This document shows, piece by piece, positions 43,627-52,930 of a stretch of 64,000 nt of DNA. Where the stretch lies: positions 2,069,587 to 2,133,586 of the forward strand of contig OZ253446.1 of NCBI GenBank assembly GCA_965261245.1. Direction: 5' to 3'. The position numbers were made by a program, and so were the translations under genes. The notes under the pieces were generated by a model. The model saw nothing but the letters and a program-made list of their open reading frames with translations. It was not told the origin of the DNA and did no database searches. The stretch's first letter is position 1, and the number at the start of each line of letters is the position of its first letter. The DNA comes from Spirochaetia bacterium. GTDB taxonomy: Bacteria > Spirochaetota > Spirochaetia > G963692905.

Positions 43627-46041
43627 ATGAACCTTCTAAGAAGAATATCGACCCGGCGCAGTGCTCTCGCCGCACCTGTCATCTTGACAGCAATAGCACT
43701 AACCGCGCTCCTTATAGCGTGCCCCGAAGAAACCCCGCCCCCTGGTAACGGCAGTGCCGGCCAGGCAGGCCCCGGCGAGACCTGTGTCACCGACACCGAT
43801 TGCGACGGTGCCCTGATATGCACCGGCTCCCTGGGTGCCCAGGTATGCACTCAACGCGGTGACGGCGCCGTCGGCAGCTTATGCGGTACCGACAACCACT
43901 GCACCGACCCTCTGGTGTGTGACGCCGGACTCTGTTCCGGCGGCGCAGGCAGCGTCGGCGATACGTGTACCGACAACGATGGGTGCACCGACCCCCTGGT
44001 GTGCGGCAGTAATAGTAAGTGCGGTATTGCATCCGGCAGTTCGTGCAGCACCGATACCCAATGCGCTGGAGATTTGATTTGCACCGGCGCAGGCGGTGCC
44101 CAGGTATGCAGCGATGCCGGCAATGGATTGACCGGTAGCGTTTGCGGTAACGACGACCACTGCGACGGTGCCCTGGTATGCGGGAACGGCCAATGCGGGG
44201 TAGCCGCCGGCGGAACATGTACTGCCGATAGCGATTGTGCCAATGCCCTGATATGTACCGGAGCATCTGGCAGTCTGGTATGCAGTCAACCCGGCACCGG
44301 TGCCGCCGGGAGCGTGTGCGGCACCGATGACCACTGTACCAGCCCGCTGATTTGCGGCAACGGGGCATGCGGGGCAGCCGTCGGCGCTGCCTGCAGTGCC
44401 AATAACGATTGCGCCGGTGATTTGACATGTGGAGCTAATGTATGCTCTGCCGGCTCGGCTGGCGATTCGTGCGGTGCCGATAACCAATGCACCACCCCCC
44501 TGGTATGCAACGGCATCATAGGTAGTCAGACATGCGGTGACGCCGGTACCGGTGCCGCCGGGAGTGTGTGCGGTAACGATAACCATTGTACCGGCACAGG
44601 GTTGCTATGCGTCAGCGGCGCGTGCAGTATGGACGCCGACCGCGACGGCACCCTCGATGCTGACGACATCGACGATGACAACGACGGTCTCATTGAAATC
44701 AGCACCCTGACCGAGCTCCATAACATGCGCTACAACCTTGCCGGTACCACCTACGATGACGAGGACGCAGACACCGGCACGGGTGCAGATGCCGGCATTA
44801 CTACCGGTGCGCCAACTGCAGCAACCTCCAACTGCGCCACCGCAACCAACAGCGTCTACCTGTGCGGCTACGAGCTGACACAAAACCTGGACTTTGATAA
44901 AGATAACGATGGAAGCACCCACACCACCGGCACCCTGGATACCGACGACACCGCCGCCCCGTACTTCGTAGTCGCCGACGGCGGCTGGGAGCCGATTGGC
45001 AGTGGTACTGGTACGGATGCAGCGGCGATAACAGCGAGTTCTTTCCAAGCCATCTTTGAGGGCAACGGCTATACTATTGCCAATATGACTATTAGCCGCG
45101 CGCAGCAGAATGCCGGGCTTTTTGGCAGAACTACGGGTGCCAGTGCACAAATCCGTAATATTGGTCTAACCGATGTGTATATTTCTAATACTACTTCAAC
45201 GGCTGCACCAAGTACTGGCGGACTGGCAGGGATTCTTGGCAGTGATTCAGTTATTATTGCCGGTTATGCTACTGGGGATATCATCAATGGCTCTACAATT
45301 GCTGTCACAAGCGGCGGCTTGACAGGAACGGCAGGTAGTAATGCCACCATTATTGCCAGTTATGCCGATGTAACTATCGCTGGCGGTTCAGCCCGCACGG
45401 GAGCTGTTGGTGGTCTGATAGGGAATTTAGATGGAGGCATCGCAATTGCCAGTTACGCAACTGGAGATGTAGACGGTGGAGCAGGAGATTTTGATTACGC
45501 CGGTGGTCTAGTAGGATGGATGCAAGCAGGCAGCATTACAGCCAGTTATGCTACTGGAGATGCCAATGGGGGTACTGATACTAATGATGAGGGAGGTAGT
45601 TTAATAGGAGTTTACCGCGCGGGTACCATTACCGCAAGCTACGGCTTTGGTACGGCAACTGGCAGGACGATGAGGAGCGGATCGATATCAACCCAACCTA
45701 CAGGGGTAACTACAGCTAACGGGATTACCGCCGCCAATGCCGGCTCCCAATGGTCAAATGCTTCCAACAATACCTTGAACGCATGGGTCTTCGGCAGCGA
45801 CACCCGCGGGACGTGCACCGAACCGACATCACCAACCTCTGGGATAACGTATGCCAGCTATACCACCCGTGCTACTTGTGAAGCAACCACATCGCCCACA
45901 AAAGTTGCAGGCGTGTGGGTACCCGCGGCACCAAAACTCCGCTACGCCGACTACGACGGCCCCGGCACCAAGTATAGCTGCGGGTTGTTTCCCGCCGGCG
46001 TGACCTGCGGGGCCACTGGGGACGAGATACCAGGACAATAG
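43627..46041 (+). CDS. Large surface-protein family paralog (lipoprotein signal, Cys-rich repeats, acidic Ca-binding-like block, GLUG-like repeats, conserved C-terminal tail)
   Basis: Signal peptide MNLLRRISTRRSALAAPVILTAIALTALLIAC; central ~300 aa about 90% identical to paralog 26074-28662; C-terminal KLRYADYDGPGTKYSCGLFPAGVTCGATGDEIPGQ. Confidence 0.6.
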   Translation: MNLLRRISTRRSALAAPVILTAIALTALLIACPEETPPPGNGSAGQAGPGETCVTDTDCDGALICTGSLGAQVCTQRGDGAVGSLCGTDNHCTDPLVCDAGLCSGGAGSVGDTCTDNDGCTDPLVCGSNSKCGIASGSSCSTDTQCAGDLICTGAGGAQVCSDAGNGLTGSVCGNDDHCDGALVCGNGQCGVAAGGTCTADSDCANALICTGASGSLVCSQPGTGAAGSVCGTDDHCTSPLICGNGACGAAVGAACSANNDCAGDLTCGANVCSAGSAGDSCGADNQCTTPLVCNGIIGSQTCGDAGTGAAGSVCGNDNHCTGTGLLCVSGACSMDADRDGTLDADDIDDDNDGLIEISTLTELHNMRYNLAGTTYDDEDADTGTGADAGITTGAPTAATSNCATATNSVYLCGYELTQNLDFDKDNDGSTHTTGTLDTDDTAAPYFVVADGGWEPIGSGTGTDAAAITASSFQAIFEGNGYTIANMTISRAQQNAGLFGRTTGASAQIRNIGLTDVYISNTTSTAAPSTGGLAGILGSDSVIIAGYATGDIINGSTIAVTSGGLTGTAGSNATIIASYADVTIAGGSARTGAVGGLIGNLDGGIAIASYATGDVDGGAGDFDYAGGLVGWMQAGSITASYATGDANGGTDTNDEGGSLIGVYRAGTITASYGFGTATGRTMRSGSISTQPTGVTTANGITAANAGSQWSNASNNTLNAWVFGSDTRGTCTEPTSPTSGITYASYTTRATCEATTSPTKVAGVWVPAAPKLRYADYDGPGTKYSCGLFPAGVTCGATGDEIPGQ

Positions 46042-52930: not shown

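What the first reader, a model, noticed from the sequence alone, without database searches (positions are those of the whole stretch)
43627..52930. Multigene family of giant modular Cys-rich/GLUG-like surface lipoproteins (at least 4 paralogs, 7 related genes)
Four ORFs (59-2230, 26074-28662, 43627-46041, 50222-52930) share one architecture: lipoprotein-type signal, Cys-rich repeat stalk, an acidic block (DxDxDG..DDDNDGLIEI..LHN.R.NL) with thrombospondin-type-3-like DNCP motifs, a Gly-rich GGLVG repeat region and a nearly invariant C-terminal tail LRYADYDG..Y.C.LFP....CG..GD..PGQ. Three more genes (8343-9554, 9579-11294, 47200-50133) reuse the Cys-rich repeat alone or fused to a beta-propeller-like domain. 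Seven such genes in 64 kb, each next to repeat elements, with an invariant tail and variable middles, looks like a variable surface or adhesin repertoire, with the tail as a possible sorting or anchoring signal. I do not recognise the tail as a named sorting signal.
Basis: partly seen in the sequence, partly recalled or inferred. Interest (0 to 1): 0.85.

Follow-up and report, generated by a model that had tools for sequence, protein, structure and literature searches.

The report
Spirochete GLUG beta-helix lipoprotein family
The window holds four members of a family of at least 13 lipid-anchored envelope proteins of an uncultured spirochete, each a cysteine-rich stalk carrying a beta-helix binding module; the conserved "tail" is the end-cap of that module, not a sorting signal, so the finding is real but fairly ordinary.

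Summary
Four genes (59-2230 -, 26074-28662 -, 43627-46041 +, 50222-52930 +) are paralogs, 44-47% identical to the first. Each has an N-terminal signal or lipobox, a Cys-rich stalk, acidic Ca-type loops, a GLUG-repeat region and the tail LRYADYDG..C..FP..CG..PGQ.

The window comes from a 2.34 Mb genome of a deep-branching Spirochaetia bacterium. That genome holds at least 13 such paralogs.

A profile of the tail finds 495 cluster representatives. In giant relatives (up to 6920 aa) the tail occurs internally, 2-9 times per protein, at the end of each head/GLUG-helix/tail module. It has no hydrophobic segment and matches no sorting-domain model. It is therefore a module cap, not a sorting signal.

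The "stalk" is two unrelated repeat types that were swapped between cores. Against a roughly 95% identical strain the loci are syntenic and the cores are 98-99.5% identical. Only stalk repeats vary, including one 41-aa unit. This is a stable adhesin-like paralog family, not a hypervariable repertoire.

The parts
59..2230 (-). g1, 723 aa. Signal/LYIAC, 3 type-A Cys repeats, TSP3 (aa 171-196), head DIDDDDDGLIEI (aa 211-222), GLUG beta-helix (about aa 340-565), Cys-loop C-cap and tail (aa 654-723 = nt 62-271).
26074..28662 (-). g2, 862 aa. Long N-terminal extension, h-region/FVWAC, about 10 type-B (DUF7107-like) Cys repeats, head, GLUG helix, tail (nt 26077-26268).
   Evidence: = P0123. 85% DNA identity to g3 over 995 nt.
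43627..46041 (+). g3, 804 aa. Lipobox LLIAC (Cys32), type-B stalk (nt 43723-44676), head plus GLUG helix (44677-45846), tail (45847-46038).
   Evidence: (= P0124).
50222..52930 (+). g4, 902 aa. Lipobox AITGC (Cys26), 6 type-A repeats (123-nt tandem array 50396-50853), TSP3 (aa 287-316), head, 7 GLUG turns, tail (52733-52927).
   Evidence: Strain comparison.
47200..50133 (+). Lipoprotein (VIAGC). Long type-B Cys-repeat stalk fused to a Ycf48/BNR-like beta-propeller (WVAVG blades, nt about 49111-50133). It shares only the stalk with g2 and g3.
   Evidence: Relatives of the propeller part carry PF25852/PF14870 and are called 'photosystem II stability/assembly factor-like'.
8343..9554 (-). Repeat-only protein, 403 aa. 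32-aa (96-nt) type-B Cys repeats, signal peptide, no lipobox, low GC.
9579..11294 (-). Repeat-only protein, 571 aa. 32-aa type-B Cys repeats, N-terminal TM anchor, low GC (44%), next to an IS at 12325-13323.
43591..43620 (+). g3 promoter, TTGACA-18-TATAAT (12/12, extended -10). The ATG lies 7 nt after the -10, so the mRNA looks leaderless.
2237..2265 (-). g1 promoter, TTGACA-17-TATAAT. The ATG lies 7 nt after the -10 (leaderless-looking).
   Evidence: read directly
28688..28716 (-). g2 promoter, TTGACA-17-TATAAT, followed by AGGAGG and the ATG at 28662.
   Evidence: read directly
47136..47165 (+). Promoter of the Cys-propeller gene (TTGACA-18-CATAGT), with a Shine-Dalgarno sequence before the ATG at 47200.

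Best explanation
These are single-module members of a widespread, undescribed family of GLUG beta-helix envelope proteins, expanded to at least 13 paralogs in a 2.34 Mb uncultured Spirochaetia genome.

Each protein is exported by a signal peptide and, for most, lipid-anchored at its N-terminal Cys (inferred from lipoboxes). A disulfide-rich repeat stalk of variable length follows, then acidic Ca2+-type loops (TSP3 / DxDxDG). These hold out a ~450-500 aa module with three parts: an N-cap 'head' (D.D.DGLIEI..L..L.N.R.NL ... CGYEL..LDFD ... GW.PIG...F.G.F.GNG.TI.NL), a right-handed GLUG beta-helix, and a C-cap (W..AW.F....P.LRYADYDG..C..FP..C...LPGQ).

The conserved 'tail' is the structural end-cap of this module, probably stapled by its two invariant Cys. 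It sits at the C-terminus here only because these proteins carry a single module.

The most likely function is ligand binding or adhesion by the beta-helix at the cell surface or in the envelope. Paralogs would offer different binding faces and stalks would set the reach. The family diversified by duplication, by swapping stalks between cores, and by gain and loss of stalk repeats.

Shown: paralogy, domain composition, fold homology, internal occurrence of the tail, stalk swapping, and stalk-only variation between strains.
Inferred: lipidation, surface exposure, Ca2+ binding, the disulfide staple, and adhesin function.
For: - Paralogy and motifs.
- Pfam GLUG, TSP_3 and DUF7107.
- The IgA1 protease NTD, which contains this beta-helix, contacts the IgA1 Fab in the complex (PMC7695701).
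- Tail is a module end: 495 representatives. The tail occurs 2-9 times internally in proteins up to 6920 aa. P0141 is 4 tandem head/GLUG/tail modules behind a lipobox. 53 of 129 proteins have >=2 tails.
- No hydrophobic C-terminus. No Pfam, NCBIfam or PDB match to the tail.
- At least 13 paralogs in one genome.
- Stalk type does not follow core similarity: P0005 (type B) and P0011 (type A) have 78% identical cores.
- Strain comparison: cores 98-99.5% identical, one 41-aa repeat lost from the g4 stalk.
- A PROSITE-type lipobox in 57 of 96 relatives that have an N-terminal region.
- Each gene has its own strong promoter.
Against: - No experimental data exist for any member, and I found no literature on this family.
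- Lipidation and surface exposure are inferred only. g1 and g2 fail a strict lipobox pattern, and g2 has an odd 50+ aa N-terminal extension.
- The strain comparison rests on one low-coverage (2.98x) contig, so the per-region identities are rough.
- I could not inspect model coordinates, so the capping geometry and the Cys-Cys pairing of the tail are not verified.
Confidence: 0.62

Rival explanations
1. The invariant tail is a C-terminal sorting or anchoring signal recognised by a dedicated export or attachment machinery.
For: - It is strongly conserved and ends exactly at the stop codon in all 4 window genes and most single-module relatives.
- It is not covered by any Pfam or NCBIfam model.
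Against: - It occurs internally 2-9 times in multi-module proteins, each time followed by a linker and the next head motif.
- It has no hydrophobic helix or basic end (KD15 <1).
- NCBIfam reports no family of any kind on the tail, even at E<=10. From my own knowledge, that library carries models for the common C-terminal sorting domains.
- The proteins already have N-terminal signal/lipobox targeting.
- It is modelled with high confidence as part of the folded domain.
Confidence: 0.04
2. The genes form an antigenic or phase-variable surface repertoire (contingency loci), with the middle of the protein changing rapidly to evade a host or phage.
For: - There are many paralogs (>=13) in a small genome, four of them within 64 kb.
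- Internal tandem repeats occur in the stalks, with repeat-number difference between strains.
- g2 and g3 share an 85% identical 1-kb stretch in inverted orientation.
- There is a C8 tract in the g2 5' coding region.
Against: - Paralog cores are old, at 42-83% identity.
- Between strains the cores are 98-99.5% identical, no more diverged than the neighbours, and the loci are syntenic.
- No silent cassettes were seen.
- C8/G8 tracts are equally found in housekeeping genes, and the tracts upstream of the propeller gene are unchanged between strains.
- Every gene has its own full promoter.
Confidence: 0.1
3. The beta-helix is catalytic, for example a polysaccharide lyase or hydrolase, or an accessory of a protease. 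The proteins would then be envelope-tethered enzymes for matrix or glycan degradation.
For: - The closest solved relatives are parts of IgA1 proteases.
Against: - There is no HExxH motif and no M26 or other catalytic domain.
- The invariant columns are mostly Gly, aromatic, hydrophobic and Cys residues typical of a scaffold.
- No CAZy-type family was hit in Pfam or NCBIfam.
Confidence: 0.14
4. They are periplasmic or structural envelope proteins of the spirochete (an outer-sheath or S-layer-like scaffold) rather than adhesins facing the outside.
For: - From general knowledge, spirochete lipoproteins are often periplasmic.
- Abundant disulfides fit any oxidising extracytoplasmic compartment.
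- Strong constitutive-looking promoters and high conservation between strains fit structural proteins.
Against: - Modular stalk-plus-head design with variable stalk length, TSP3 loops, and multi-module giant relatives with fn3, PKD and InlB-B-repeat domains are typical of outward-facing adhesins.
- Thirteen diverged paralogs are hard to rationalise for a single scaffold.
Confidence: 0.1

Closest known systems
N-terminal beta-helix domain of Gram-positive IgA1 metalloproteases (S. pneumoniae 6XJA/6XJB/7JGJ; G. haemolysans 7UVK)
   Different: The window proteins have no M26 catalytic domain and no HExxH. They carry an N-terminal lipoprotein signal, a Cys-rich stalk, TSP3 loops and a YADYDG...PGQ C-cap, and they occur as a 13-member paralog family. 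From my own knowledge, not tested here, IgA1 proteases also carry G5 domains and an LPXTG-type wall anchor.
BACOVA_03286 of Bacteroides ovatus (PDB 3N6Z, 'putative IgA1 protease')
   Different: A function for BACOVA_03286 is not known to me (not looked up). Its solved 339-residue chain is far shorter than the window proteins; I did not examine its sequence for a stalk, acidic loops or a tail. The tail profile finds nothing significant in PDB.
Multi-module GLUG giants of sponge-associated Gammaproteobacteria (Ca. Porisulfidus, Oxydemutatoraceae MAGs) and other marine bacteria
   Same: In the giant representatives read here (for example P0141 and P0156, organisms not identified) the same head/GLUG-helix/tail module appears, including LRYADYDG...LLPGQ. 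Several have lipoboxes and type-A 'C.NGTP' repeats. Loci in Ca. Porisulfidus and Oxydemutatoraceae MAGs match the same module over about 3 kb each.
   Different: They carry 2-9 tandem modules, often with PKD, fn3 or InlB-B-repeat spacers instead of Cys stalks, and share only about 30-37% identity. The window proteins carry one module each.
Thrombospondin type-3 repeat proteins such as MtsC (NF047638)
   Same: The DxDxDxxxDxxDNCP Ca-binding repeat is present in g1 and g4 (Pfam TSP_3, 29-31 bits). There is a partial NCBIfam hit.
   Different: The hit scores 32-35 bits against a 350-bit cut-off and covers only the TSP3 stretch. There is no MYXO-CTERM.
Beta-helix adhesins (PfbA 3ZPP; autotransporter passengers such as Vag8 and pertactin)
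   Different: There is no sequence homology and a different anchoring mode (LPXTG or a beta-barrel, against an N-terminal lipid). No autotransporter barrel is present.

Membership tests
GLUG-motif beta-helix proteins (Pfam PF07581) | Repeated GLUG motif scoring above Pfam's gathering score | tested here: met
   g1 37.9, g2 20.6 and g4 58.4 bits against a 20.5 cut-off. g3 falls below threshold alone but aligns column for column.
GLUG-motif beta-helix proteins (Pfam PF07581) | Right-handed beta-helix fold homologous to solved GLUG domains | tested here: met
M26 IgA1-specific metalloprotease | Catalytic M26 domain with HExxH | tested here: not met
   No Peptidase_M26 hit. No HExxH in any of the four proteins.
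Bacterial lipoprotein | Signal peptide ending in a lipobox [LVI..][ASTVI..][GAS]C (PROSITE PS51257-type pattern) | tested here: inconclusive
   Met by g3, g4 and the propeller gene. g1 (LYIAC) and g2 (FVWAC, Cys70) miss the strict pattern. 57 of 96 relatives match. No dedicated predictor was available, and lipidation itself is not testable here.
C-terminal sorting domains (PEP-CTERM, MYXO-CTERM, GlyGly-CTERM, LPXTG, T9SS CTD) | Obligatory C-terminal position, and (except the T9SS CTD) a hydrophobic helix plus basic end, or a match to the NCBIfam/Pfam model | tested here: not met
   The tail is internal in 53 of 129 relatives. KD15 <1 in the last 80 aa. No model matched at E<=10.
Thrombospondin type-3 repeat | Pfam TSP_3 above the gathering score (25 bits) | tested here: met
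   g1 31.2 and g4 29.0 bits. Absent from g2 and g3, which keep only DxDxDG-type acidic loops.
DUF7107 / Dickkopf_N-like Cys-rich repeats | Pfam PF23416 or PF04706 above the gathering score | tested here: met
   g2 24.8, g3 32.1, 8343-gene 30.1, 9579-gene 41.7/53.7 and propeller gene 50.4 bits. Not met by the type-A stalks of g1 and g4.
Autotransporter (type V) adhesins | C-terminal beta-barrel translocator | tested here: not met
   No autotransporter domain in Pfam or NCBIfam. The proteins end at the tail.
Contingency / antigenic-variation loci | Simple-sequence tracts specific to the genes, silent cassettes, or high inter-strain divergence of the exposed part | tested here: not met
   No SSRs. 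C8 tracts are not specific to these genes. Cores are 98-99.5% identical between strains. Only one strain pair was compared.

The most novel reading that the evidence does not exclude
The head/GLUG-helix/YADYDG-cap module, mounted on eukaryote-like Cys-rich and TSP3 spacers, could be a host-matrix-binding 'symbiosis adhesin'. It would be shared by unrelated bacteria living in marine invertebrates: this spirochete, Ca. Porisulfidus and Oxydemutatoraceae from sponges. Stalk length would be tuned by repeat recombination, and the paralogs would target different host ligands.
Probability: 0.2. Interest if true: 0.55.

Novelty: new member of a known kind. Interest (0 to 1): 0.3.

Why it matters
The work defines the true unit of an uncharacterised but widespread surface-protein family. 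There are 495 clusters at 50% identity, with proteins up to 6920 aa. The unit is a ~450-500 aa module with recognisable N- and C-caps around the GLUG beta-helix. Current domain libraries annotate only the 28-residue GLUG motif within it.

It also removes a tempting false lead, a 'new sorting signal'. Finally, it flags a candidate adhesin repertoire (>=13 genes, roughly 1% of a 2.3 Mb genome) in an uncultured spirochete lineage, which would be the natural place to look for host- or particle-attachment functions.

Tried and rejected
- Exact look-ups of encoding contigs for g1, g3, P0005 and HisB found nothing. The cluster look-up then showed that the window is the 2.34 Mb genome.
It returned only 15 distant loci and not the source genome.
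- The AFDB50 fold library was unavailable.
- Literature searches for GLUG motif, domain or repeat, with spirochete, lipoprotein or symbiont, returned nothing relevant to this family.
- Pfam on the propeller part alone gave only sub-threshold noise. Homologs were needed to place it.
- I considered phase variation through the C8 tract in g2 and the C8 tracts upstream of 47200. I rejected it because such tracts also occur in housekeeping genes and are unchanged in the related strain.
- I considered the tail as a T9SS, PEP-CTERM or LPXTG-type signal and rejected it.
- I considered that all seven genes share one stalk repeat and rejected it, because there are two unrelated types.
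Full report
**Observation.** The ORF list and translations show four long ORFs at the stated places. A MAFFT alignment (A1) gives 44-47% identity to g1 and more than 150 invariant columns. These include the signal-peptide Cys, DIDDD.DGLIEI, L..L.N.R.NL, CGYEL.Q.LDFD, GGW.P, F.A.F.GNG.TI.N, the GGL.G / ASYA.G repeats, ASYGFG, and the tail LRYADYDG..Y.C..FP..CG..G..PGQ followed by the stop codon. 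Pfam finds GLUG (g1, g2, g4), TSP_3 (g1, g4) and DUF7107/Dickkopf_N-like repeats (g2, g3 and all three extra genes). NCBIfam gives only a sub-threshold hit of the TSP3 stretch to MtsC.

**Corrections to the description.** The stalks are of two unrelated kinds.
- Type A is a ~41-aa unit, Y.C.NGTP...GCQ.C.DGY...C, found in g1 and g4. It has no Pfam model.
- Type B is DUF7107-like, found in g2, g3, 47200-50133, 8343-9554 and 9579-11294.
- BLASTP of A against B gives E=0.48. The g3 stalk against the 8343 gene gives E=5e-28.

A strict lipobox is present in g3 (LLIAC), g4 (AITGC) and the propeller gene (VIAGC). g1 (LYIAC) and g2 (FVWAC, behind a 50+ aa extension) only approximate it. The two repeat-only genes have a signal or TM segment but no lipobox.

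**Context and source.** The neighbours are ordinary chromosomal genes: pyk, a hisZ-hisG fusion, hisB, leuS, metG, a murD-like gene, femAB, sigma-54 activators and two tRNAs. There are also two IS copies. Exact look-ups show that g1, g2, g3, Pyk, TatD and LeuRS all lie on one 2,343,434-bp NCBI/ENA contig. The window's LeuRS is 99% identical to a sister strain, 71% to the next relative, and 62-63% to named Spirochaetaceae, Alkalispirochaetaceae and Spirochaeta species. The organism is therefore a deep-branching, uncultured member of the Spirochaetia.

The homology search with the g2 core and tail returned more than 2884 hits. Nine further paralogs sit on the same genome (P0005, P0010, P0011, P0017, P0018, P0029, P0030, P0032, P0048). 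That makes at least 13 copies, four of them in this 64-kb window.

**What the core is.** An AlphaFold2 model of g1 built on a 50-sequence alignment (A2) has mean pLDDT 81, above 90 for residues ~210-600 and about 90 for the last 50 residues. The stalk is modelled poorly, at 55-75.
- Foldseek against PDB puts BACOVA_03286 (3n6z) and the IgA1 metalloproteases first.
- A family profile against all PDB sequences finds only the IgA1 protease, at E 1e-12, aligned GLUG turn by GLUG turn.

In the S. pneumoniae enzyme, the N-terminal domain that contains this beta-helix contacts the IgA1 Fab, and the helix acts as a mobile gate (PMC7695701). The window proteins have no HExxH and no protease domain. They are stand-alone GLUG beta-helix modules on stalks.

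**What the tail is.** I aligned 44 tails (A3, 72 positions; consensus W.AxxNTLxAWxFGxxSQxPALRYADYDGxGxTxYxCxxFPxxxPxxxxxxxCGxTLLPGQ). I searched this profile against 1.84 billion cluster representatives.
- It finds 495 proteins at E<=1e-3.
- The best hits are giant proteins of 1400-6920 aa in which the tail matches 2-9 times, mostly internally.
- Reading one of them makes this concrete. P0141 (2354 aa, with a lipobox) consists of four tandem units. Each runs D.DGDGLIDI..L..L...RYNL - CSGYELTQ.LDF - GWEPIG..F..VFEGNGYTISNL - GLUG turns - ASYGFG - W..A....NAW.FGTT...P.LRYADYDG..C......CGTTLLPGQ. A short Pro-rich linker and the next head follow.
- 53 of the 129 proteins that were newly returned among the 150 best hits carry two or more tails.
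- The tail has no hydrophobic stretch (maximum Kyte-Doolittle over 15 residues <1).
- It matches no Pfam, NCBIfam or PDB entry even at E<=10.

The tail is therefore the C-terminal cap of a ~450-500 aa module. It is terminal in the window genes only because they contain one module. Its two invariant Cys suggest a disulfide staple, which is an inference. The sorting-signal idea is not supported.

**How the family varies.** Pairwise identity of the 13 cores ranges from 42 to 83%, so the paralogs are old. Stalk type does not follow core relatedness. P0005 (type-B stalk) and P0011 (type-A stalk) have 78% identical cores, whereas g2 and g3 (type B) are 60% and 52% identical to P0005. Stalks have therefore been exchanged. 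g2 and g3 are the youngest pair, at 85% DNA identity over 995 nt in inverted orientation.

A 23-kb metagenome contig from a sister strain (L016) is collinear with window 40.9-54.4 kb. Per-region DNA identity is:

| Region | Identity |
|---|---|
| g3 core | 99.5% |
| g3 stalk | 98.6% |
| g4 core | 97.8% |
| g4 stalk | 88% |
| Propeller-gene stalk | 94.7% |
| Flanking murD-like gene and ORF 41419-43263 | 94.6-96.4% |
| Flanking NFACT gene | 92.0% |

At the protein level, g4 and its counterpart P0027 are identical through the whole helix. They differ by exactly one 41-aa type-A repeat plus substitutions in the stalk. The contig has only 2.98x coverage, so the figures are rough, but the direction is clear: cores are conserved and stalks vary.

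No simple-sequence tracts specific to these genes were found. The C8 run early in g2 and the C8 runs upstream of 47200 have equivalents in housekeeping genes, and the latter are unchanged in the sister strain. This does not look like an antigenic-variation system.

**Expression signals.** g1, g2, g3 and the propeller gene each have a near-perfect TTGACA-17/18-TATAAT promoter. In g1 and g3 the ATG lies 7 nt after the -10 hexamer. In g4 a GTG lies 7 nt after a TATAAT. These may be leaderless mRNAs, which is an inference. g2 and the propeller gene have Shine-Dalgarno sequences.

**The three extra genes.** 47200-50133 is a lipoprotein with a long type-B stalk. Its C-terminal WVAVG repeats belong to a large family whose members carry PF25852/PF14870 and are called photosystem II stability/assembly factor-like, that is, a Ycf48/BNR-type beta-propeller. 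The same stalk therefore displays a different head. 8343-9554 and 9579-11294 are nothing but 32-aa type-B repeats (96-nt tandem arrays). They lie in a low-GC stretch of 44-50% beside an IS. They are related to the finding only through the stalk repeat.

**Mechanism proposed.** The chain would be exported by Sec. For most members it would be N-terminally lipidated, which is inferred. It would fold oxidatively into a disulfide-rich stalk. Acidic TSP3/DxDxDG loops at the stalk-head junction would bind Ca2+ (inferred). The beta-helix module at the distal end would bind ligands. This last step is inferred from two things: the role of the homologous IgA1 protease domain, and the adhesin-like architecture of relatives that combine the module with fn3, PKD and InlB-B-repeat domains. 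Paralogs provide different helix surfaces, and stalk repeats set length.

The rivals are an enzyme, a periplasmic scaffold, a variable repertoire and a sorting signal. They are scored in the report sections.

**Distribution and novelty.** Besides spirochete MAGs, the limited genome scan found the module in Ca. Porisulfidus and Oxydemutatoraceae MAGs, and in Oleispira and Colwellia. Porisulfidus is listed among known sponge symbionts (PMC12988363). The contig naming of the sister strain fits a long-read host-associated metagenome, but the habitat of the source genome was not established.

I found no paper describing this family. The fold and motif are known, and the proteins are new members of the GLUG beta-helix surface-protein kind. 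Three things appear undescribed: the delimitation of the full module with its head and tail caps, the two stalk types, and the 13-fold expansion in a 2.3 Mb spirochete genome. They are of moderate interest.

Noticed in passing
window 7651, 13611, 17409, 23748, 33934, 43150, 46860, 46948, 61146, 61234 (element copies e.g. 7561-7695, 23658-23831, 33919-34033, 61145-61316): A dispersed intergenic repeat with core CGCTACCCCC occurs 10 times against 0.29 expected. It is often followed by ..TGTAAA.ATATTAAGTCATA.. and a GC hairpin (GCGCCGC..GCGGCGCC). A degenerate copy lies just upstream of the g1 promoter, and another lies upstream of hisZG. It may be a REP/MITE-like or promoter-associated element.
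   Followed up: partly
window 23948-24301, 24372-24668, 46185-46601: Small ORFs (98-138 aa) encode single-TM coiled-coil proteins. One contains a 21-nt tandem array (24032-24156) coding NRRIDDT heptads. The 46185 ORF is flanked by ~65-nt direct repeats (46085-46150 / 46625-46690) and has its own TTGACA-17-TATACT promoter. No Pfam family passes threshold.
   Followed up: partly
window 2228-2265 (-), 43591-43629 (+), 50210-50224 (+), 46150-46187 (+): Several genes start 7 nt after a consensus -10 hexamer with no Shine-Dalgarno sequence. This suggests leaderless transcripts may be common in this spirochete.
   Followed up: no
window 17500-19254 (+): A single 584-aa ORF fuses a HisZ-like (tRNA-synt_His) domain to HisG (ATP phosphoribosyltransferase). 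From general knowledge these are usually separate subunits.
   Followed up: no
window 8000-12000 and 24000-26000: Low-GC islands (43-50% against about 58%). One holds the two Cys-repeat-only genes beside an IS (12325-13323). The other holds an FRG-domain/TPR protein (24736-26034) next to g2. These are possible horizontally acquired segments. A second IS copy of the same type lies at 55805-56848 next to tRNA-Gly.
   Followed up: no
window 2436-4628 (-), 41419-43263 (-), 19889-21091 (+), 28750-30608 (-), 32908-33678 (-): Sizeable ORFs without any Pfam family. The 730-aa ORF lies directly upstream of g1, and the 614-aa ORF upstream of g3 has a TM segment and short GAGA repeats.
   Followed up: no
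window 45700-45990 (g3 C-terminal region) versus g1, g2, g4: The lineage-specific Cys-loop insert (C.AP..T.G..Y..YT...TC) sits before the W..NTLNAW motif in g1, g2 and g4 but after it in g3. Most distant relatives lack it. The C-cap therefore tolerates insertions at two positions.
   Followed up: partly
window 28582-28589 (g2 codons ~25-27) and 47085-47101: C8/G8 homopolymer tracts lie in the 5' coding extension of g2 and upstream of the propeller-gene promoter. Similar tracts occur in housekeeping genes, and the 47-kb ones are unchanged in the sister strain, so there is no evidence of phase variation.
   Followed up: yes
L002, L004-L012, L014 (Ca. Porisulfidus MAGs OZ244052.1, CBDAVG010000002.1): The sponge-symbiont gammaproteobacterium carries several GLUG-module loci, each matching the query over up to ~3 kb. 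They are clustered within tens of kb, for example OZ244052.1 389-430 kb. This is a parallel expansion of the same module in an unrelated host-associated lineage.
   Followed up: no
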